Origin: Callorhinchus milii
Taxonomy: Eukaryota
DNA length: 64,000 bases
Reading direction: 5' to 3'
Assembly (NCBI RefSeq): GCF_018977255.1
Contig: NW_024704742.1
Span: 128,466,001 to 128,530,000 of the forward strand
Position numbers and translations under genes: made by a program. Under the pieces are notes generated by a model. It was not told the origin of the DNA and searched no databases. It was given only the letters and a program-made list of their open reading frames with translations. Shown piece by piece: positions 1 to 47,229 of the stretch; within the stretch, counting starts at the first letter, position 1; every line of letters starts with the position of its first letter.

Positions 1-409
1 GTGAATGCTAAATTTCCTTCCCATCTTTCGCATGATGCATTTCCTGATATAACAGCTGCAAAAATATCATTCTAAAAATATCCCGCTTTTGTGAAGTGTG
101 CATGACCACAAAGATTTCATCCTTAGCAGTGGGTTCAATATAAAATGAATATTTATAAATCTGTGGTCCTTTGTTGCCACAGAAGCTCCGTAATGTCTTT
201 AGTTGAAGCGACCCTTTTACACCACCTGTGAGCCATATGTGGCCCGGTCTGGTGTCTGCACTTTCCCACATGGGGACGTCTGATTTCAGCCGAGCTGCTG
301 GGTTGCAGTGGGGCCTTCACTCTCCCAGCTGTCGTGCTACTCTGAGGGCTGACAGATTAAAGATCAATACTGAATCTGCGGCGATCAAATTGACACGTTG
401 TCATTTACT

Positions 410-570
410 CCAACAATAACGACAACAATAACAACAACAGAATTACATTTATGTAGAGCCTTTCACATCAGGAGGATGTCCCGAGGTGCTGCACAAGTAA
501 GGGTTTGCACTCGAGCTGGGGGTTGGAATCAAGAGAGGCGGAAAATAGGGGAGGTGGGAAGTGGGCAAAA
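410..570 (-). mobile_element. L2 LINE 3' end fragment
   Basis: (caa)n tail followed by attacatttatgtagagcctttcacatcaggaggatgtcccgaggtgct, the reverse complement of the L2 tail at 46950-47010. Confidence 0.8.
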
Positions 571-589
571 GCACGATATAAAAAAAAAT

Positions 590-1223
590 TCTCACTAAAA
601 CCACGATTGTTTGTGGGTCTCTACTGTGTGCAATTGGCTGCCGCATTTCGCCCACCAAATATACAGTCAATTCACTTTATGATATATTCTGTGCAGTGCT
701 TTGAAACATCTCGACGACATGATAAGGCCCTATATCAAATGCAAGGATTATTATTATTATGAAAGTTGCATCAGACCAGGCACTGGGAACTGCACATGAG
801 AATTTCACAGACAGGAGTGCAGAGTCAGCACAGCAGAAAAGGAATACATTTGTTAAGAATTATTATTTTATTATCTTAACATAATGCCATAATATCTGGC
901 ATTCACTGCTTGGCATTATGTTAAGATAATAAAATAATAATTCTTCGTAATCCTAAAAGGCAAAAATTGACCAGTATAATCCCAATTATTGTGAATAGAA
1001 TGGTAATATACACTAAATAATAATCTAACGTATAAACCCTTCAGAAAAAATAATTTGGTCACTCAATCCACAACTGTTTGTCGGACACTGCTGTACGCAA
1101 TTAGCTGCCGCGATTTCCTACAAAATATACATTGAATTCACTTTACACTATATTCTGTGAAGTGCTTTGAGACGTCTCGAAGACGTGATGAGGGGTATAT
1201 CAAATGCAAGGATTATTATTATT
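590..1223 (+). mobile_element. Two 5'-truncated family A SINE 3' halves (about 590-760 and 1030-1223)
   Basis: Both end tcaaatgcaaggattattatt and match the full-length copy at 10396-10770. Confidence 0.85.
855..945. repeat. Perfect 35-bp inverted repeat with 21-nt spacer
   Basis: 855-889 aagaattattattttattatcttaacataatgcca is the exact reverse complement of 911-945. Confidence 0.97.
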
Positions 1224-2238
1224 TCAATGCAAAGACAGACACTTTTCTACTTTTGCTTTCGGTATTGGCATCTAACACCCCTAGATAATAATTTGATGTA
1301 GCACCTTTTGTGTCAGTTGTACATCTCAAAGCGTTTCACAGGATTTTCTCTAAAGTGTAGTGACCGTGTAATTATTTTGTAGGCACCCGAGAGAAGTACA
1401 TGCGGAACAGCCTAGGGTGAATACAGACAAATACTTTCATCCAGCAAAAAAGGCTATGTATGATATGTATAATTGGTGCCTAAAATTAGCAGCTGATACC
1501 GCAATAATTAATTCCTTCGATAAATTAGCTGATTATGTTAGAGAACAGATTTGGCCGGAATTTAAATGCAGTTATAAATAGTATGAATTTTAAATTAAAT
1601 TAACAAATATTGCTTCAGCAGATTAATTTATGTCTGTGTGTATGGGGGTGAGTGGGGGGGAGATAGTTAATCAAGCACTAAGACCTCAAGGGTTAACATG
1701 TTTTGATCATTGAAATGATCTGAAGACCCTCTCTTTTTTAAATAAATGACAGGATATTAGGGTCTAAAAGCAATGCTCACAATGGGATTGACTGATCATG
1801 ACAGAGTAACTAACGGGGATTCCTGACACTAACCATGAGCAATCCATGGTAGACTCGCTCATACCCAGTGAATTTGCTAATGAACAGTCCCCTAAGGGTT
1901 AAATGGCACTGGAATATAAAGACGAGAGGGTTATTTATTTAGAAAAGAAACACACTTTGTGTCTGGCAGTGATAACTGAATTGAATAACACTATAATAAT
2001 GTTTACATTTGATATAGAGCCTTTCATGTAGGGAGAATATGTCAAATGTTTCACAGGATCTACTGTATAGTGAAATGACTGTGTACATTGTGGAGGGTGA
2101 CATTTCCTTGCTTTTGTGAGGTGATATTTCGCAGTAGCTCGGTACACAAGGGAGGCCAAAGCCTGTTACCAGCATCCTGACTTGCATTGCTGACCTGAAT
2201 TCTTATCCATGTGTTTCTCTTTACTTTGTTCCTTCCAG

Positions 2239-2430
2239 GCAGAATTCACAGCCATGAGGGACCAATACATGCGAGGGGGAGAGGGCTTTATAATCTGTTA
2301 TTCTATCACTGATCGACGATCATTTCAGGAGGCCGCAGAGTTCAAAGAGCTTATCTATCGGGTCCGGCACACATACGATATCCCCGTGGTCCTAGTTGGC
2401 AACAAAACAGACTTGGAGGAGTACAGACAG
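2239..2430 (+). CDS. RIT2: RIT2 (Rin) small GTPase, penultimate coding exon (192 nt, phase 0-0)
   Basis: Pyrimidine tract ending ttccttccag (AG 2237-2238), donor cag|gtacgg at 2431. Encodes [64 protein letters not shown] with the G4 NKxD motif. FQEAA, VRHTY and MRGGEG fit RIT2 better than RIT1. Confidence 0.95.
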
Positions 2431-3705
2431 GTACGGTAACTCTTATTTCTAATATCACTCTACAGTGATCCTTCAGGATCAATTGCATTTTCCAAAGGAT
2501 TCAAAGGACTTTGTTTGTTTCAATTGAAATACCGTAAAATACGTTATTTATCCAGCAAGCAGTGAATGCCAGATATTCTATTTATTTTCTAATCATTAAA
2601 AGCCCCTGTTAGATTAAGGGTGTCATTTAAGTTAGCAAATATCTTTAGTTTCAAATTGGCCCATGGAATGATCCTCTTACTCGTGAAAATTATTTCCTCT
2701 CCTGCAACTGGCAATGATCTTTAGTGTCATTCAAAACGTATCACTGCTGTGGAAAAGCAGCATTGCTGTCACAGGGAGGTTCCAGTTGCTGCTTCTGGCA
2801 TTGCTCAGCTGATGTATTTCTGCAGGTAACTCACAGCAAAGACTTTCTGAGTCAGACTGAGTACAAGCCAACCCAGGAGAATGATTGTCTGTCAAGCATT
2901 TCATGTGATGATAAGTCACTCTAAAAATGCAAGTATTCTTCCCACCCCCTCGGGTACCCTGTCAACTCCAAAAAGCACTTTGAGATTCTCCCAACATGAA
3001 CGGCATTATATAAATGTAAATTGTACGGTCTTATTGTATTGTATAACCAGAAAAAAGTTCCATATGCACAAGTTGAATTCCTTATTAAGAAATCTTACTC
3101 TGTACTACACAACGTAGACACCATCTCCACAACCTCCCTTGCTTTTTCCCAGGTGCCTTTAATATTGAAGTGAACATGCGTTAATTATCACACAGTGCAC
3201 TTTCCACCGCATTATTTTCCCTCAAATATTTATCCACTATTACACCTACGCCATATGGAGCATTTACATTTTGATTGCCTAAGTCATACTTGCTCTCAAG
3301 CTAATTCTGTAAAATTTACATAACCTTTCCTCCTCAGAGTCAGTGACTGAACCCACCATGATATCAACACAGTATTTAGTGCCAATAAATTATCCTTAGC
3401 ATGAATAATGAAGGCCAAGATAAAGGCAAAAAACTATTACTGAGAACATATACATTGCGATCTATTATTTTCTCACTTTCTGTGATCATAGAATCATAGC
3501 AATTTACGTTGCAGAAGGATGCTATTTAGCCCATCAAATCTGCACCCGTTTCAGGTGTTCAAGACTGTGCCTTGTCTCTGTGTTTCAGTTCCATACGATT
3601 CGACACGACTGTTTCAAACTGGCTCATTGGGTAGCACCCTCACCTCTGAATCAGAAGGTTCTGGGTAAAGTTCCACCTTGGGACTCTGAACACATAGTTT
3701 AAACT

Positions 3706-4252
3706 GACAACAACACAATTTGCATTTATCGCGTCCCTTACGCAGAGTAGCTTCCTAGAACTCTTGACAGTGGCGGAGCACGATGCCAAGCCAGGGGGAG
3801 GGAAAGGTGACCGGAGGCATGGTCGAATAGGAACGTCTTCAGGCTTGATCTGATGATGGGAAAGGAGGGGCAAGGTGAAATTAGAGGAAGAGTGTTCCAG
3901 AGTTTTGGCGCGTAATGGCTAAAAGTGCAGCCACTGATGGTAGAAAGGAGGGCCAAGGGACATGCAGGAGGACGAAGCCAGTCGAGCGGAGGCAGCCGGT
4001 AGTGGGATGGGGGTAAACAAGTCGGAGAGGTAGGGAGGTGCCAGGGGATGAAGGGATTTAGAAACGGGTGTAAGGATCTTGAAATCGATCAGCTTTCGGT
4101 GATAGGGAGCCAGTGGAGACTGACTAGAAGTGGTGTGGTGGAGTTTAGTATGTGAGTAAGGTGAGTATGTGGGTGGCGGAGTTTTGGATCAACTGGATTT
4201 TGTGGATGGTGGAACTGGGGAGACCAGCGAAGAGGGCATTTGAATTGTCGAG
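3706..4252 (-). mobile_element. L2 LINE 3' fragment
   Basis: ORF remnant FSHYAPKLWNTLP...LKTFLFDHA and a (caa) tail at about 3706. Confidence 0.85.
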
Positions 4253-4389
4253 TACAGTGTTGCATTGTTGGAGGTGCCGATCTTTGAATGAGACATTAAA
4301 CCCAGGCCACATCTCCCATGGCGCTATTCAAAAAGAGAAGCAAGTTTCTCCCCGTGTCCTGGCCACCAATCCACCAAATAAATTGATCA

Positions 4390-5608
4390 TTCATAAGACG
4401 TAGGAGCAGGAGTAGGCCATTCGGCCCCTCGAGCTTGCCCCACCATTTAATAAGATCATGGCTGATCTTCTAACCTATCCCCATATCCCGTAATTCCTCT
4501 ATCCTTTAGAAATCTATCAACCTCAGTCTTGAATATGTTCAAGGACTGAGCATCCATAGCCTTCTGGGGTAGAGAATTCCACAAATTCACTACCCTCTGA
4601 AGAATGTTTCAACTCAGTTCGAAAAGGCTGACCCTTAATCTTGGCATTAGCATGGCATTAGCCTTCCTAGTTGCTTGCTGTACCTGCATACTAACTTTTT
4701 GTAACTGGTGTACAAGGACACCCAAATCCCTCTGAACACTAACACTACCTAGTCTCTCCCCCTCTAGAAAATAATCCCCTTTTCTATTTTTATTACCTAG
4801 GTGAATATCTTCACACTTCCCCACGTTATACTCCATCTGCCACCTTCTTGTCCTCTCACGTAGCCTGTCTATTTCCCTTTGCATTCTTTGTGTGTCATCC
4901 TCACAGCTTATTCTCCCACCTATCTTCATTTCATCCGCGAATTTAGATACGTTAAGTTCTACTTCCTCATCTAAATCATTGATATAGACTGTAAATAATT
5001 GAGGTCCAAGCACTGATCCTTGTGGCACTCTGCTAGTCACATCCTGCCAATCTGAGTTTATCCCTACTCTCTGTTTTCTTCCTGTTAGCCACTCTCCAAT
5101 CCATGCTAATATATTACCTTTAATTCCATGGGCTCTAATCTTATGAAGAAATGTTTCCTCAACTCAGTTCGAAAATGCTGACCCTTAATCTTGCGACTAT
5201 GAACCCTAGTTTTGGATTCTCCAATCAGGGGAAACAGTCTCACAACATCTACCCTGTCAGGACTCTTAAGAATCTTATAGGTTTCTATAAGATCACCTCT
5301 AAATTTTCTATATTGTCGAAAATATAGGCTTAGTTTACTCAACCTATCCTCATAGGTCAACCCCTTCATCCCAGGAACCATCCTAGTGAATCTACGCTGC
5401 ACCCCCTCTAAGGCGAGTATGTCTTTTCTTGAATAAGGAGAGCAAAACTGCACACAATGTTCTAGGTGCGGTCTCACCAAGGCCTTATACAACTGCAGCA
5501 AGACTTCCCTACTCTTGTACTCTAACCCTTTTGCAACGAACGTCAACATGGCATTAGCCTTCCTAGTTGCTTGCTGTACCTGCATACTAACTTTTTGTGA
5601 CTTCATAA
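4390..5608 (-). mobile_element. CR1 LINE, RT C-terminus plus 3' end, internally permuted
   Basis: ORF remnants [23 protein letters not shown]...SKFAD and LYKALVRPHLEHCVQF...[15 protein letters not shown]. 3' end aggagcaggagtaggccattcggccc. Confidence 0.92.
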
Positions 5609-7197
5609 CTATTCGTAGGACATTGCCTACAAAATAATTAAAATAATCCTTGCATTCGATGTTTCACTTTTGATTTCAGGAGGATGTTTCAAAATGCTTC
5701 ACAGGATTTGCTATAAAGTGTTGTGACTGTTTATTTTGTAGATTGACTTGGCAGCCAATTGGTTCACAACTAGTCCCACAAACAGTTATGGAATTAATTT
5801 ATCAAGCGGATTGATGGCCATTACGCACAGTCAACTGAACAGGCAGTCACTACACTTTACATTACAACCTATGAGACAACCTCCTGAAATCAAAGATGAA
5901 ACATCAAATGCAAGGATTATTATTTATTATCAATTCAAAACATGGAGAAAACATGCATGCCAAGTGAGCCTCCTGCTATTCAACCCACATTCATTACCTC
6001 TGTCCTAAGGATGAAACGGCCGATGCTTTGCTGAGTATTTTTCCCTTTGCTCCATTGCAAAACGCAAACGTTATTTAAAAGCCATCAAAAGGTGACATTT
6101 ATCCTTTGATTAAAAAATGACTGGAAATGATCAGAGAGCTTCCTGAGATTACACAATGAAATGTCTCCTGAGTACCCCTGCCATTTGGGACAGCTATGAA
6201 TCTCATTTTATACTCTGGTTCACAGTCAGGCCATTATTATCAGAATTGTGCTGCTTAGGGTAAGATTTAGAATCTATAATAACTTACATCAGGCTCTGCA
6301 GTTTCCCATTAGCTGTGCTGAGAAAGTAAATTAAAAGAATAACAAGAATAACAATTGTAATTGCGAACTTTATGGCAATGAGCACCCATGCTAATTTTAA
6401 TGAATTGATACTGCACTAAGAACCTTATTTTGATTTTGTGAGCAGCTGAGGCAAATCAGTAACACATTGATGCTTCCAACCATTGCGTTCAACGGATGCG
6501 ATTCTTAATAATTACGGATAAAAGCCTAAAGTTTCAGCATGTGGCAAGTCACTCAGGACTCTTCATCCTGCAATCAACGAACTTGCTTCACTGGATATTC
6601 CCAGCTTCCCTCTCTCCCATTCTCATTTACACCCAGCCCTGACACTTTACCGCTTCCCCAAGCCATTCTGTGCCCAATTGGTGAGCAGCCTGAGGGAAAT
6701 GAGGAAACCTACTTGCTGTGCTTAGCCAAATTAACTGGCCTCCTGCTGTAGATGAATCAATACTGAATATATGTTTTTTTTAAATAAAGTATAAAAGATG
6801 CACTGTCAGTCTGAGCAAATAGTTTTTTGTTATATTAAGCAACTGTATCACAACAACAACTTGCATTTATATAGCACCCTTCACACAGGGTAGCATCCCA
6901 GAGCACTTGATTCACAAGTTCTGGCCTAAATTGGATCTTAACAATTGAGCTGAGGTGATGTTTTCTCTTGGGAGAGAGAAATTTATTGCAAAAATTCGAT
7001 CGCTATTCTGCTTTAAGGGTCAATTTTCAAACTTAACTACGAAGTGAATAGGAGGAAAGAAAGCTATTTCAGGGAGTTTCCTTCTAAGAGTGTGTACCTA
7101 AAGAAAGGGGAGTTTGCATAACAAATCAACCATCACAAAATACTCTTTAGTCTGAAAAATAAGATTGTTCAGATGTTTACAAAAACTGTTTAATCCA

Positions 7198-7612
7198 GAT
7201 TTGCATTTGATATAGCGCCTTATCGCGTTGCTAAGACATCTCAAAGCGCTTCACAGAATATAGCGTAAAGTTAATTGACTGTCCAGCAACTTGGGACATC
7301 CTCTTGACGTGAAAGGTGCTATACAAATGAAATGTGTTGTTGTTATACTTTGTGGACAAAATGTTGCAGCTAGTTGCACACAGCAGTGTCTCACAAACAG
7401 TCGTGGATTGAGTGACCACATTTTTAAAAAAATTATTTTTGAAGGAATTATTACACCTGGTAAAGTGATCCAACAATCGACTAACAACCGGGTTCCTACT
7501 TACTGCTAGGTAAACAGAAGTGTGTGGATTAAGGAAACTTGCCTGACATTTCACCCGGCCTGGGAATCCTCTTGCTTGCGAGTCGAATGCTTTAACCACT
7601 AAGCTTAATACC
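7198..7612 (-). mobile_element. Family A SINE, near full length, with a short L2 tail inserted at about 7281-7345
   Basis: Reverse complement of head, central block and tail of 10396-10770. Confidence 0.85.
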
Positions 7613-7942
7613 ACATGGTTTTAAAGCTCTTAAAGCCAAGAACATAAGGTTTCTTGGTCTCCTGCTCTTTTTAACAGTGCCAAAATTAATAGGTTGAAAA
7701 CAAAAGTGCATAATGTAGTAGGAGCTGGGTTTGTGGTCAAGGGTTAGGACGTGGAACCTGAAAAAACTCATGACACCCAGGAATATTGCTTTTATCTTCT
7801 TCAGCAGTTGAATGGTTTATATCACCTATAAAAGGTATAATAAAGACAGTGAATAATCCAGCTGATATTGTCATGGACCAAGGACACAGAACAAATGAAA
7901 GCATAAGGTGAGAAATAGGGGTTGAAATAGCCCATAGTTTCC

Positions 7943-8256
7943 CTAACTGGACAAGCAGCGGGAAAGCAATATCAATGACAAGCTATGCGGTTTTGGTTGG
8001 TTAGTCTCCAGCAGTACCACAACACATATTCTGGGGTCCTCAAGCTTTGGCTCTTGCCAACCAGTACCTAAACCGTTCGGAATTAGGTAAGCAGGATGCA
8101 TCCCTCCAGGGAGAGAGTGCGCGTACCATTCCAACAATCTATCTCTGGGATTTCCATGTGTATGTGGGATGCTAGGAAATATCAGCTTGGTTCGGATACT
8201 CTTAAGCACGGTGATGAGTTTTCGCATATGTCAGACAATGGCTGACCAAAAAAAAA
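7943..8256 (+). mobile_element. Unclassified oligo(A)-tailed retroposon (family C)
   Basis: Ends ggatactcttaagcacggtgatgag...ggctgacc plus A9. Homologous to six other loci in the window. Confidence 0.75.
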
Positions 8257-8399
8257 GGCAAAAGTTGCTTGATCTTTCAAAAAAGCAATGAGAACACATG
8301 TGATCACGCAAACTAGAGCCCAGTGTGAAACAACCCTGTACAGACTCGTAAGATCCCAGGCTCTGGAGAGATAAAATCAGATTGACTTCCTGCTCCTAA

Positions 8400-8645
8400 A
8401 TAATTTGTACACAGTAATGCCCCACAAACAGCTGTTATGTGGTTGACCCAGGATACCCTCAGAAACTCCTGTCTCGTTTTGAGTAGTGTCATGGGGATCT
8501 TTAACGTCCACCTGAACAGGCAGATGGTTTCTCGGTTTAACGTGTAATCCAAAGGATGATGCCTCCCAACAATGACCATGCCTCCCAAACTTCCGACATG
8601 GGCTTGAAGCCACAACTTACGAGTGTGCTACCAGCTGAGCCAGAG
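8400..8645 (-). mobile_element. Family B Deu-domain SINE
   Basis: gggatctttaacgtccacctgaacaggcagatggtttctcggtttaacgt is the reverse complement of the Deu core. Confidence 0.85.
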
Positions 8646-9880
8646 TCTATTTTTATATTAAGAAATCCGCATGTTAGACTCCAACAGCCTTGAAGGGGAA
8701 CCTTTTTTATTCACATGTAGCATTGATAACCATTTTTGCATGACTATTCCCTTTATTGTCATTGAATAATATAGAATTTATTCCTTAAATGACCACCTAC
8801 AAAATTCACAGTTACTATACTTTACATATATCACAAGATTACAAGATTGGTTTGAATTGCTTTGGCCCAGCTGATCTCATCCCTCCAGAATACCACCATC
8901 TGAAATGGTTTAAGACGTCCTCCTGATGTGAAAGGCGCTATATCAAATGTAAGGATTTTTTGGGACTCAGCTCTTTTATGGTGAATTGCAATGTATTGTG
9001 ACCTTATCCTTCAATGTAAATGATTTGATCTGGATTAGATGGCTTTCCATCACTCAATAGAAAATGACATTTTATGCAGCATTGTATGACTGCATCTATA
9101 TAATGTATTATCATGGTTCTGGTACCCTGGTAAATGAATTTTCTACATCACATGCAACATCATGCACCTGAATTTTGTCTACTGTTATAAATTTTAATAG
9201 CAACAGCATCTGTGCCTAGATATATATTATAAATCAAATCAGGAGCATCAGCTAACCAGACACAAGTCTCACTGCAGTAAGGTCACTTATTACATTTCAC
9301 TACTTTCCATTTGATTCACGTAAACAACATAGTTTAAACTTGTTTATCAAGGGGATGGATGTTAGTGCTGATAATATGGAACACAACTCCCTATTCAAGC
9401 AGCAACACAGTGAAGCATCTTATAGTAAACATGTAGAACAGGCTCCCTAGGAAGACGGTTGAAGCAGGAAGCGTTGATTCTTTCAAACACAGATTGGGAC
9501 ATATGTGCATGAGACCACCAGCAAGGTGGAAGGCGAACTAGATGGACCTTGTTTTTTTTTGTCTAGCATTTCTTATGTTGTTATGTAACACATTTAGATG
9601 CCGACCATATCTAACTGACTGGTGCTCTGTCTTAGCCCCAATCTGAATACTGTACCACACCCTTGGATCAAATTTACTAGTGAGATATTTTTCCATTTCC
9701 TTCACCAGTCATCGCGAGGCCCCTTTGAAAGGGAGATGGCAGTCTCATAGAACAATATTAATAATCATTGCATTTGATATAGCGTCTTTCATGTCATGGG
9801 AACAACTCAAAGAGCTTCACAAGATATCCTGGAAAGTGTAGTGACTGTGTATTTTTCCAGGTAAACAATATTAATCCTTG

Positions 9881-11399: not shown

Positions 11400-12135
11400 A
11401 GATGAGAAGTTGCAAGTTCCATTCAGCCTCTGGTTAGAATTGAAGAAAGTAAAAAGGAAAGAAAATCAGAATATGCTACAGGTTGACAATGAAAATAAAT
11501 ATATTGCTGGAGGGAGTCATAAAACTGCAAAATCCTAGATAGTTATTCTGAGGGATTTCAATCTTCCAAACATAAAGTGGGATTTAGAGTGGAGACAGTC
11601 TGCATGAGAGCATCAATTTATTATTGTTGCACAGGATTCATATCAGAAAAAAAAACTCCTGTCAGGAAACCGACAAAGGGAAGTCCAATATTGCACATAA
11701 TTTAACGAACAATGAGAGGCTGATAAACAAAGCAGGAATGAAGAAAGATATGCCCACCTTTATAGATCTACTGAAATAATAATGTTATTTTCAGGATTAG
11801 AAGTGAGGATGGAAAATGGAAGAGGATCTATAAAGAAGCTCAATTGTTATGCAGCTGTCTTGGGGTATGAAGGAATATATAGAGATATTGAAAAACATTT
11901 AAATTTAGGAAATAACATGGAAAGCAAACGGAAACATTTTAAAAAGAGAGTTTTGATGCTGCAATTATGTTGTATCTCTGAAATATGCTGTGGAAGGGCC
12001 CGAACTGGCAAGGTTGACTAAGAAAATTGCGGAAGGCATTCAGGAGGAGAGGAAAGAGCGTGAACGTTTAAAACATTCAGGAAATTAACTGTATGGGGAG
12101 ATCCAGAAAGGTGGGCAGAGAAATGCCAAGAACAA
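11400..12135 (+). mobile_element. Old CR1 ORF2 endonuclease-region remnant (another piece at about 13340-13420)
   Basis: About 11545-11583 reads LRDFNLPNIKWD (GDFN-like), about 11661 VRKPTKGSPIL, about 13370 RVLKELPQVIAD. Confidence 0.65.
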
Positions 12136-12277
12136 CAACAGAAGCAGCAACTTGCACTTAAATATTACCCTTCACTTAGGGTAACATTTCAGAGTGCTTT
12201 ACAGAGATTGGGTTGGATGTGAAGCAAGGGAGAAGGGGGAGTTTATGAGGTAAATTTAAAGGGCATATGAAGTAATA

Positions 12278-12835: not shown

Positions 12836-13909
12836 AGATAAAGCGATCTGAGACATTACCTTAAATGAAGGGTGCTATTTAAGAGCAAGTTGTTGTTACT
12901 GATGTTGTTCTTGGCATTTCTCTGCCCACTTTCATAGAATTCCCCATTCAGTTAGTTTCCTGATTGTTTTAAATGTTCAAACTCTTTACTTTTCTCCCTC
13001 TGAAACTTCGCCCCTCTACCTCACCCACTTTCTATCCGCCTTCAAAAACCTACCTCTCCGACTGTGTTTATAGTCACCTCCGTCTTACCCCAACCCCTTT
13101 CCTTCCTCCCTTGCTCAAAGTCTGACTGTTTCTTTGTGAAACATGAGTGGTGGTGTGTAAGTGCAAGCTGTTGTTTGGTGTTGTCCCAGGGCAGCATTGT
13201 GTAGGGTTTTGCTTGAGCAGGGCGAGCAGTCGAGCCTAGAGGTTGGAGGTGATAAAGTCATGGATGAGGGTTTCAGCAGTCTGGGAAAAGGCAGTGGCAG
13301 GAAGATGTATTGGGAAGATTGTCAAATCAAAGTAGATACGGTTACTGTTTGATACAATTTCCATCTCAGAGTTCTGAAGGAATTGCCTCAAGTGATCGCA
13401 GATTCCTTCATGGATATTTCAGTTGTATTCAGGTTGAAATCCGTTTATTCTGGAGTTTCTAAATTGCCGGACAATTGTAAATGAGCTCTGCATGCATGAG
13501 ACAGCATGATGTTTCTGCACGGATTAGCTCAATTTCTTCACAGTGTAAGTGTCATCGAAATTGCCTACTGTAGCAGTGAAGAGACATTTGATTTGTACAA
13601 CAAATATTATAATTTCTAAATTAAACCCATTAAATCGTTAAAATAATGAACATGGTTCATAAGCGCATTTTAATGGATTTTCTGAGCTCTCTGCTATTCC
13701 TGTGTTTGTAATAATATACAAGTTAGGAAAAATGTTGGCCATCAACTATTAAAGCTTACAGTGCGGTAATGAACCGTATAACTTTAAGGTAGTGTTTATT
13801 ATAATCGAGGGAAATATTAATAGTTGCTATACAATTAAATTTTTAGCTATGTTTGATTATAGAATAATAATTTCTTTTGTAGCCTTGTACATTATTTTTA
13901 AGACATGAA

Positions 13910-44320: not shown

Positions 44321-44536
44321 GTCTCTAAAGAAGAAGGTATGGCCTTGGCAAGAGAGTGCAACTGCCCCTTCTTTGAAACTTCGGCTGCTTTGCGCCTCTA
44401 CATTGATGATGTCTTTTATGGGATGGTACGTGAGATTCGGAGGAAGGAAGCCCAGCTCTCTTCTGAGAAGAAAGTGAAGAGGAGAGACAATATCTGGAAG
44501 AAGCTGAAAGGCTCCTTCAAAAAGAAGAAAAAATAA
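44321..44536 (+). CDS. RIT2: RIT2 last coding exon (G5 motif, polybasic C-terminus, no CAAX)
   Basis: Acceptor ccttttccag ending 44320. Encodes [71 protein letters not shown], stop TAA 44534-44536. Joins the upstream exon in frame (RQ|VS). ETSAALR and WKKLKGS are RIT2-type. Confidence 0.95.
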
Positions 44537-47183: not shown

Positions 47184-47229
47184 ACGCGCATTAAAATGGA
47201 TTCGGACGCGAATCCATTTTAATGCGCGT
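47184..47229. repeat. Perfect 21-bp inverted repeat with 4-nt loop
   Basis: acgcgcattaaaatggattcg-gacg-cgaatccattttaatgcgcgt. Confidence 0.97.

What the first reader, a model, noticed from the sequence alone, without database searches (positions are those of the whole stretch)
855..2577. Perfect hairpin whose loop is an exact antisense copy of a 22-mer on the other side of the RIT2 exon
Seen: 855-889 and 911-945 form a mismatch-free 35-bp stem. 891-912 (aatatctggcattcactgcttg), essentially the whole loop, is the exact reverse complement of 2556-2577 (caagcagtgaatgccagatatt), which starts 126 nt downstream of the exon. Neither piece matches the SINEs or LINEs I recognise here. Inference on origin: a recent multi-jump templated insertion of the kind made by polymerase-theta end joining or template switching. 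Inference on effect: in pre-mRNA the loop could pair across the 192-nt frame-preserving exon and favour skipping or back-splicing.
Basis: partly seen in the sequence, partly recalled or inferred. Interest (0 to 1): 0.78.

Follow-up and report, generated by a model that had tools for sequence, protein, structure and literature searches.

The report
Multi-jump DNA repair scar in intron
A perfect hairpin in an intron of a shark-like fish's RIT2-type gene is real and young, but it is best explained as a 68-base copying scar of DNA break repair, a known kind of mutation, and nothing shows that it controls splicing.

Summary
Confirmed letter for letter: a 35/35 stem, and a 22/22 antisense match 1.64 kb away with only two exact copies in 992 Mb. 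Short-read contigs of 4 of 4 genetically different samples hold the loop between both arms, so it is not a fold-back artefact.

Correction: the right arm is old sequence. It belongs to a SINE-tailed retrocopy with two hairpin-free paralogs. Left arm and loop are a 68-bp insertion flanked by a 12/13-bp direct repeat. All but one inserted base parse as successive template switches at 2-4-nt microhomologies, mostly fold-backs of one strand: break-repair synthesis of the TMEJ/SD-MMEJ or MMBIR type. The enzyme cannot be decided. The insertion is much younger than its host copy (P about 5e-5).

The splicing role is unsupported. The loop is locked by its stem, and 8 of 13 exon-spanning inverted pairs within 5 kb pair more strongly. 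No RNA test was possible. The stem has Microprocessor length but none of the four motifs.

The scan noted the same kind of scar on other DNA. New member of a known kind; low interest.

The parts
842..1223 (+). Host: old 5'-truncated retroposed copy. Low-copy 5' extension (about 842-1040, interrupted by the insertion) plus a high-copy SINE-like part (about 1040-1223) ending in an (ATT)n tail
   Evidence: 919-1223 is 81% identical to L003 and 915-1089 is 71% identical to L004; 842-858 aligns to L003 at 15 of 17 columns; only these two loci share the extension; 15 of 179 columns differ from the majority of 154 long copies. 'SINE' is a label from tail and copy number, not from a library
859..926 (.). 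The 68-bp templated insertion (one of several equivalent placements); removing it joins 858 to 927 and restores continuity with the paralogs
   Evidence: inferred; no empty allele was seen
847..858 (+). Left copy of the flanking direct repeat (12 nt)
   Evidence: equals 914-926 except for one base
914..926 (+). Right copy of the flanking direct repeat (13 nt)
   Evidence: 915-926 matches L004 at 12 of 12
855..889 (+). Left arm: derived inverted copy (snap-back product), 83% A+T
   Evidence: absent from both paralogs
890..910 (+). Loop, 21 nt; a 4-bp inner fold (898-901 with 907-910) is predicted
891..912 (-). Inverted copy of the donor 22-mer
911..945 (+). Right arm; 927-945 is old retrocopy sequence, 914-926 the direct repeat, 911-913 new
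2239..2430 (+). 192-nt in-frame coding exon of the RIT2-type gene (fourth exon found; carries the NKxD motif)
2556..2577 (+). Donor of the loop, unique intron sequence; 2565-2571 also equals 883-889 (the first priming step)
   Evidence: no difference listed here in 4 of 4 runs
2002..2038 (+). Repeat-derived stretch that pairs with 2985-3020 across the same exon (-38.2 kcal/mol); a nearer competitor on the 5' side

Best explanation
A neutral germline scar of break-repair DNA synthesis. A 3' end of the minus strand inside an old retrocopy went through several aborted rounds of priming, written here in + strand coordinates. (0) The 13 nt 926->914 duplicate 858->847, either as a first aborted round on the other end with one extra base, or by re-annealing behind the departure point. 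(1) The tip primes by a 4-nt microhomology at 2565-2568 on its own strand 1.6 kb away and gains 3 nt. (2) It slips back to 2556-2557 (2 nt) and gains 20 nt: the loop. (3) It folds back locally (3 nt) and gains 3 nt. (4) It re-pairs at 911-912 (2 nt) and copies 33 nt of itself: the perfect stem. (5) The new tip anneals to 855-858 (4 nt) and repair is completed. Hairpin and antisense match are by-products: copying from one's own strand always leaves inverted copies. SHOWN: the matches, uniqueness, presence in reads, old right arm, young age. INFERRED: the empty allele, the order of steps (step 3 rests on one base), resection of more than 1.7 kb, neutrality. Enzyme, my estimate: polymerase-theta-type end joining about 50%, MMBIR/FoSTeS at a broken fork about 35%, other (such as retroelement nicks) about 15%.
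For: The paralogs carry the right arm without the hairpin. The flanking direct repeat and the 842-858 match to L003 give a clean insertion. The only long template within about 6-7 kb on either side is 2556-2577; the other best matches are 7-11 nt. The junction 7-mer 883-889 recurs inside the donor, P about 1e-3. 57 perfect pairs in a host about 8% from its family majority: P about 5e-5, upper bound 2.6% per copy. A second perfect 42-bp hairpin, in another low-copy repeat whose paralog lacks one arm, turned up in 600 kb of unselected DNA. Such events are described: 33 of 103 and 26 of 99 germline MMB-TI calls in two people were complex multi-template events (PMC8421209 section 10); snap-back synthesis, also from a TG/CA primer (PMC5728401 passages); multi-round, AT-rich TINS (PMC7165422).
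Against: No empty allele was seen: 15 of 352 joints were shown and none was 858->927, so the ancestral state rests on paralogs about 20-30% apart. One base of the direct repeat is unexplained. Tracts of 20 and 33 nt and a 1.6-kb jump are atypical for Pol theta (templates typically within 30 bp, tracts rarely over 10 bp, distal templates under 0.1% of repair). 0 of the 7 other perfect hairpins had a long nearby template for the loop (best 8-14 nt), so this sub-type is uncommon. Presence in all four samples at about full depth fits drift but does not exclude selection. Neutrality was not tested.
Confidence: 0.82

Rival explanations
1. The scar has become a splicing element: the loop pairs with 2556-2577 in pre-mRNA, loops out the exon and promotes skipping or back-splicing.
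For: Both pieces are complementary in the sense transcript; -36.6 kcal/mol, spread 1.7 kb, inside the length, energy and distance limits of PCCRs, which go with lower inclusion and circRNA (PMC8052449 passages). The 3' partner is the nearest to the exon of all pairs listed (126 nt). Opening 5 inner stem pairs costs 13.5 kcal/mol, less than the duplex gains. Present in 4 of 4 samples.
Against: A two-turn helix in a loop closed by a stem that forms 1.6 kb earlier needs a many-kb tail to be threaded through (own knowledge of topology); the best 10-bp part gives -15.2 kcal/mol before penalties. 8 of 20 loop bases and most donor bases are predicted paired locally. Stronger exon-spanning pairs: 1 of 2 within 2.3 kb, 8 of 13 within 5 kb, 83 of 89 within 14 kb. 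The element is young, so not conserved. Skipping would remove 64 residues of the GTPase core, including NKxD.
Confidence: 0.05
2. The scar is a newborn intronic microRNA (or ADAR-edited) hairpin, as described for template-switch mutations in primates.
For: 35-bp stem, loop over 10 nt, sense strand of an intron: the preferred geometry (PMC10710096 and PMC5340965 passages).
Against: 0 of 4 motifs (basal UG, apical UGU/GUG, CNNC, mismatched GHG) at recalled positions; stem 83% A+T; Rfam matches to miRNA models all far below gathering score (best 41 against 80 bits); over 6,000 such hairpins gave about 18 stringent genes in primates. 0 of 187 intronic miRNA rows in a published elephant-shark table fit a 16.4-kb intron with a precursor about 1.3 kb from its end (read by eye; weak, since that assembly and gene set differ).
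Confidence: 0.05
3. Hairpin and loop were made during the retrotransposition itself, as templated filler at the 5' junction.
For: The insertion lies 17 nt from the 5' end of the retrocopy; a similar case is noted in this genome (e1-7812105); a 12/13-nt direct repeat resembles a target-site duplication.
Against: Age: the host is 15 of 179 columns from the family majority and at most 87% like any of 154 copies, while 57 pairs are perfect (P about 5e-5; 22-mer alone 0.02). The repeat flanks the insertion, not the retrocopy. A later abortive endonuclease nick as the trigger is not excluded.
Confidence: 0.04
4. Member of a family of hairpin mobile elements (MITE or Penelope-type fold-back).
For: Perfect inverted arms with a TSD-like repeat; fold-back elements with 14-15-bp TSDs are noted in this genome.
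Against: Stem: 2 copies at up to 3 mismatches; 22-mer: 2 exact copies; every part has a local template; no hammerhead among the 8 Rfam matches.
Confidence: 0.02
5. Fold-back artefact of sequencing or assembly.
For: The left junction was not among the listed pieces; all four runs come from one study.
Against: 860-940 with 0 differences in 4 of 4 runs that differ from each other at 1571, 1710, 1746 and 2211.
Confidence: 0.01

Closest known systems
Complex microhomology-mediated templated insertions (MMB-TI, class CM; PMC8421209: abstract, section 10 part 1 and passages read)
   Same: Germline insertion over 25 bp built from several templates, forward and reverse, with microhomology at the switches
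   Different: Their search covers templates within 100 bp; here one template is 1.6 kb away and the product is a perfect hairpin around it
Polymerase-theta TINS and SD-MMEJ snap-back synthesis (PMC7165422: passages and section 7 part 1; PMC5728401: passages)
   Same: Aborted rounds in A+T-rich DNA, direct and inverted copies, 2-4-nt primers, a final microhomology made by synthesis
   Different: Tracts (20, 33 nt) and donor distance exceed the typical range; enzyme dependence cannot be tested
Four-point template-switch mutations and TSM-born hairpins/miRNAs (PMC5453318 and PMC10710096: passages)
   Same: One-event birth of a perfect intronic hairpin of about 35 bp
   Different: Needs several switches, intra-strand copying and a return point behind the departure point, which that model leaves out or did not observe
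Pairs of conserved complementary regions that loop out exons (PCCRs; PMC8052449: passages)
   Same: Length, energy, distance and exon-spanning position
   Different: Young, not shown to be conserved, and one partner is locked in a hairpin loop

Membership tests
Pol theta TINS / SD-MMEJ | Inserted bases identical to flanking DNA, direct or inverted | tested here: met
   67 of 68 bases have a template
Pol theta TINS / SD-MMEJ | Short microhomology at each priming step | tested here: met
   4, 2, 3, 2 and 4 nt in the minus-strand parse; order inferred
Pol theta TINS / SD-MMEJ | A+T-rich synthesis tracts | tested here: met
   stem 83% A+T against 59% in 1-5000
Pol theta TINS / SD-MMEJ | Template typically within 30 bp; tracts rarely over 10 nt | tested here: not met
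   donor 1.64 kb away; tracts of 20 and 33 nt. Typical, not absolute, limits
Pol theta TINS / SD-MMEJ | Dependence on POLQ | not testable with these tools
   historical germline event
Complex MMB-TI | At least 25 bp, several templates, microhomology at junctions | tested here: met
Complex MMB-TI | Seen against an uninserted allele | tested here: inconclusive
   no empty allele among 15 of 352 joints shown; paralogs serve as outgroup
Four-point template-switch mutation | One switch and one return, return point not behind the departure point | tested here: not met
   several switches and a 12/13-nt duplication
PCCR / exon loop-out structure | At least 10 nt, -15 kcal/mol or lower, within 10 kb | tested here: met
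   22 nt, -36.6, 1.7 kb
PCCR / exon loop-out structure | Both partners conserved across vertebrates | not testable with these tools
   G000 has no relatives held; the age bound argues against
PCCR / exon loop-out structure | Effect on exon inclusion or circRNA | not tested
pri-miRNA | Stem 35 +/- 1 bp, loop of 10 nt or more | tested here: met
   35 bp and 21 nt (ranges; 21 is above the enriched 8-16)
pri-miRNA | UG, UGU/GUG, CNNC or mismatched GHG motifs | tested here: not met
   0 of 4 (positions recalled; a perfect stem has no mismatch)
pri-miRNA | Processed small-RNA reads | tested here: inconclusive
   0 of 187 published intronic rows fit by geometry; no reads examined
Hairpin mobile element | Dispersed copies of the arms | tested here: not met

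The most novel reading that the evidence does not exclude
One repair accident built a working RNA element in a single step: a Microprocessor-sized hairpin that displays an antisense loop aimed across its own host exon. It spread through the species and now tunes RIT2 exon skipping or circularisation, or yields a new intronic microRNA. That would be a dated birth of a long-range splicing structure by templated insertion.
Probability: 0.06. Interest if true: 0.65.

Novelty: new member of a known kind. Interest (0 to 1): 0.17.

Why it matters
As it stands: a clean natural example of multi-round templated insertion in a cartilaginous-fish germline, with a 1.6-kb jump beyond what nearby-template searches cover. 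It is also a caution: perfect hairpins with antisense loops around exons arise from repair alone and are not by themselves evidence of regulation. If the functional case held, it would show that exon-looping pairs can arise in one mutation.

Tried and rejected
Run search: no RNA holder on record. The lay covered 760-2720 at likeness 90; SINE copies swamped the joint, loose-end and piece tables (337, 1,723 and 201,032 rows not shown), so neither an empty allele nor the left junction could be read. That the left-flank contig was dropped by graph cleaning next to a high-copy repeat is my guess. Rfam: 8 matches, all below gathering score, generic hairpin hits. A plus-strand parse was rejected as less economical: it needs both donor strands and a template spanning the break. 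An RNA-templated version was set aside: the first steps need an antisense template. 755-862 has no other match in G000. The literature search on RIT2 splicing gave only that human RIT2 has three protein-coding isoforms that each dominate in some sample (PMC9714508 passages); a human isoform lacking this exon is my recall, unchecked. The main supplementary PDF of PMC3964593 was too large to read and may bear on the miRNA question. Two look-ups of earlier findings returned nothing. No search was made for this locus in print, so no claim of absence from print is made.

Full report
OBSERVATION. The stem 855-889 / 911-945 is perfect over 35 bp with a 21-nt loop, and 891-912 is the exact reverse complement of 2556-2577. 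The hairpin folds at -50 kcal/mol, z = -11. The window is G000:C1:128466001-128530000 in a 991.5-Mb assembly. The 22-mer has 2 exact copies and 1 with two mismatches; the 35-mer has 2 copies at up to three mismatches. A chance match is about 1e-8. The exon 2239-2430 encodes 64 residues of a Ras-family protein closest to Rit1 among solved structures and is the only RIT-like exon found. Other exons lie at about -48.7, -19.3 and -14.2 kb and at 44321. A synaptotagmin-IV-like gene lies about 97 kb upstream on the same strand. This fits RIT2 by recalled human synteny; no tree was built.

IS IT REAL? Four runs (4 samples, 1 study) hold 80-87% of the words of 760-2720. Laid on it, 4 of 4 give an 81-nt contig equal to 860-940 and a 157-nt contig equal to 911-1067, with no differences. 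The runs differ from each other at 1571, 1710, 1746 and 2211, so they are different genotypes. Loop-contig depths (5.6, 7.8, 8.5, 7.9) are near those of long neighbours (9.3, 8.1, 8.2, 7.7), which fits homozygosity in at least three. Limits: contigs drop rare variants; only 15 of 352 joints were shown and none was an empty allele; the left junction was not among the pieces listed.

WHICH PART IS NEW? Searching G000 with 780-1020 found two loci that match from 915-919 onward. 919-1223 is 81% identical to L003 and 915-1089 is 71% identical to L004, ending in an (ATT)n tail. The two paralogs resemble each other for about 45 nt further upstream and have no hairpin. No other locus shares the 5' extension. 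The window's 842-858 aligns to L003 at 15 of 17 columns, and 847-858 repeats as 914-926 but for one base. So the retrocopy began near 842 and was interrupted by 68 bp (859-926) with no deletion. The empty allele is inferred, not seen.

AGE. The SINE-like part differs from the majority of 154 long copies at 15 of 179 columns, and its nearest copy in 664 kb is 87% identical. Were the insertion as old, 57 perfect pairs would have P about 5e-5 (stem alone 0.002, 22-mer alone 0.02); the 95% bound is 2.6% per copy. This assumes neutral, even rates; the arms could be re-homogenised, the distant 22-mer could not easily be. Presence in four genotypes suggests it is not a private variant.

MECHANISM (inferred). 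Read on the minus strand, the only long template within about 6-7 kb is 2556-2577; other best matches are 7-11 nt. The parse: 926->914 duplicates 858->847; the tip primes at 2565-2568 (4 nt) and gains 3 nt, which explains why 883-889 equals 2565-2571 (P about 1e-3); it slips to 2556-2557 (2 nt) and gains 20 nt; folds back locally (3 nt) and gains 3 nt; re-pairs at 911-912 (2 nt) and copies 33 nt of itself; and anneals at 855-858 (4 nt). After the first step every template is the same minus strand, as expected of a resected 3' overhang folding on itself. One base of 68 has no template, and the third step rests on one base. This matches snap-back SD-MMEJ (PMC5728401 passages), multi-round A+T-rich TINS (PMC7165422 passages and section 7 part 1) and complex germline MMB-TIs, 33 of 103 and 26 of 99 calls in two people (PMC8421209 abstract, section 10 part 1 and passages). 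Against typical Pol theta: templates usually within 30 bp, tracts rarely over 10 nt. Against the simple four-point fork model: it covers one switch, and found neither intra-strand events nor returns behind the departure point (PMC5453318 passages). The enzyme stays open.

HOW COMMON? In 664 kb (the window, 200 kb upstream and 40 arbitrary 10-kb stretches) there are 8 perfect hairpins with stems of 18 bp or more and loops up to 80 nt; 2 have stems of 35 or more. The second, a 42-bp stem in L111, also sits in a low-copy repeat whose paralog lacks one arm. One in 600 kb outside the window suggests about 1,600 per genome (hand arithmetic; Poisson range about 40-9,000). Only 1 of 8, this one, has a long nearby template for its loop. 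Of 146 exact inverted matches of 20 nt or more within 5 kb, 12 are in sequence seen only twice; at least one of these is a piece of a longer repeat pair.

DOES IT ACT ON SPLICING? In favour: the 22-bp duplex is -36.6 kcal/mol, opening five inner stem pairs costs 13.5, the limits of PCCRs are met (PMC8052449 passages), and the 3' partner is only 126 nt from the exon. Against: the stem forms long before the partner is transcribed, and a two-turn helix in a closed loop needs threading of a long tail (own knowledge); a 10-bp part gives at best -15.2 before penalties; loop and donor are partly paired locally; stronger exon-spanning pairs number 1 of 2 within 2.3 kb, 8 of 13 within 5 kb and 83 of 89 within 14 kb; the element is young; skipping removes the GTPase core. 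No RNA test was made.

MICRORNA? The geometry is the preferred one, and template switches have made miRNAs in primates, about 18 stringent genes from over 6,000 hairpins (PMC10710096 and PMC5340965 passages). But 0 of 4 motifs are present at recalled positions, Rfam scores are far below threshold, and 0 of 187 intronic rows of a published elephant-shark miRNA table fit this intron's geometry (PMC3964593 passages and supplement parts 1, 10-12; by eye, weak).

EARLIER NOTES. The scan has called similar features repair scars in this genome and in others. These are unchecked AI notes and served as leads only.

VERDICT. Real, young, single-copy multi-jump templated insertion; new member of a known kind; function unlikely (about 10% for any RNA role). 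Interest 0.17.

Noticed in passing
L111:1861-1952 (G000:C5:30001861-30001952): Perfect 42-bp hairpin with an 8-nt loop inside a low-copy repeat; the paralog in L109 lacks the stretch that forms one arm. Probably another snap-back insertion.
   Followed up: partly
window 47184-47229: Perfect 21-bp hairpin with a 4-nt loop, no other match in 664 kb.
   Followed up: partly
window 842-1040; L003:1432-1648; L004:1457-1656: A low-copy 5' extension of the SINE is shared by three loci. In L004 the shared part begins 4 nt after the splice donor of a Claspin-like exon, which suggests retrocopies made from the 5' part of an intron RNA through its internal SINE tail.
   Followed up: partly
G000 whole: Only one RIT-like copy of this exon was found at E <= 1e-12; a second RIT gene is missing from the assembly, from the scored candidates or from the genome.
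   Followed up: no
L078:1657-3992: Two C2-domain exons of a synaptotagmin-IV-like gene about 97 kb upstream of the window, same strand.
   Followed up: partly
window 12052-12199 / 12840-12987: 148-nt, 82% identical inverted pair of a repeat, containing a 27-nt exact match.
   Followed up: partly
L100:4718-4760: Perfect 19-bp hairpin with a 5-nt loop.
   Followed up: no
window 4651-4706 / 5547-5602 and 4609-4643 / 5159-5193: Two near-perfect local direct repeats (98% and 97%) in the downstream intron, possibly further young local duplications.
   Followed up: no
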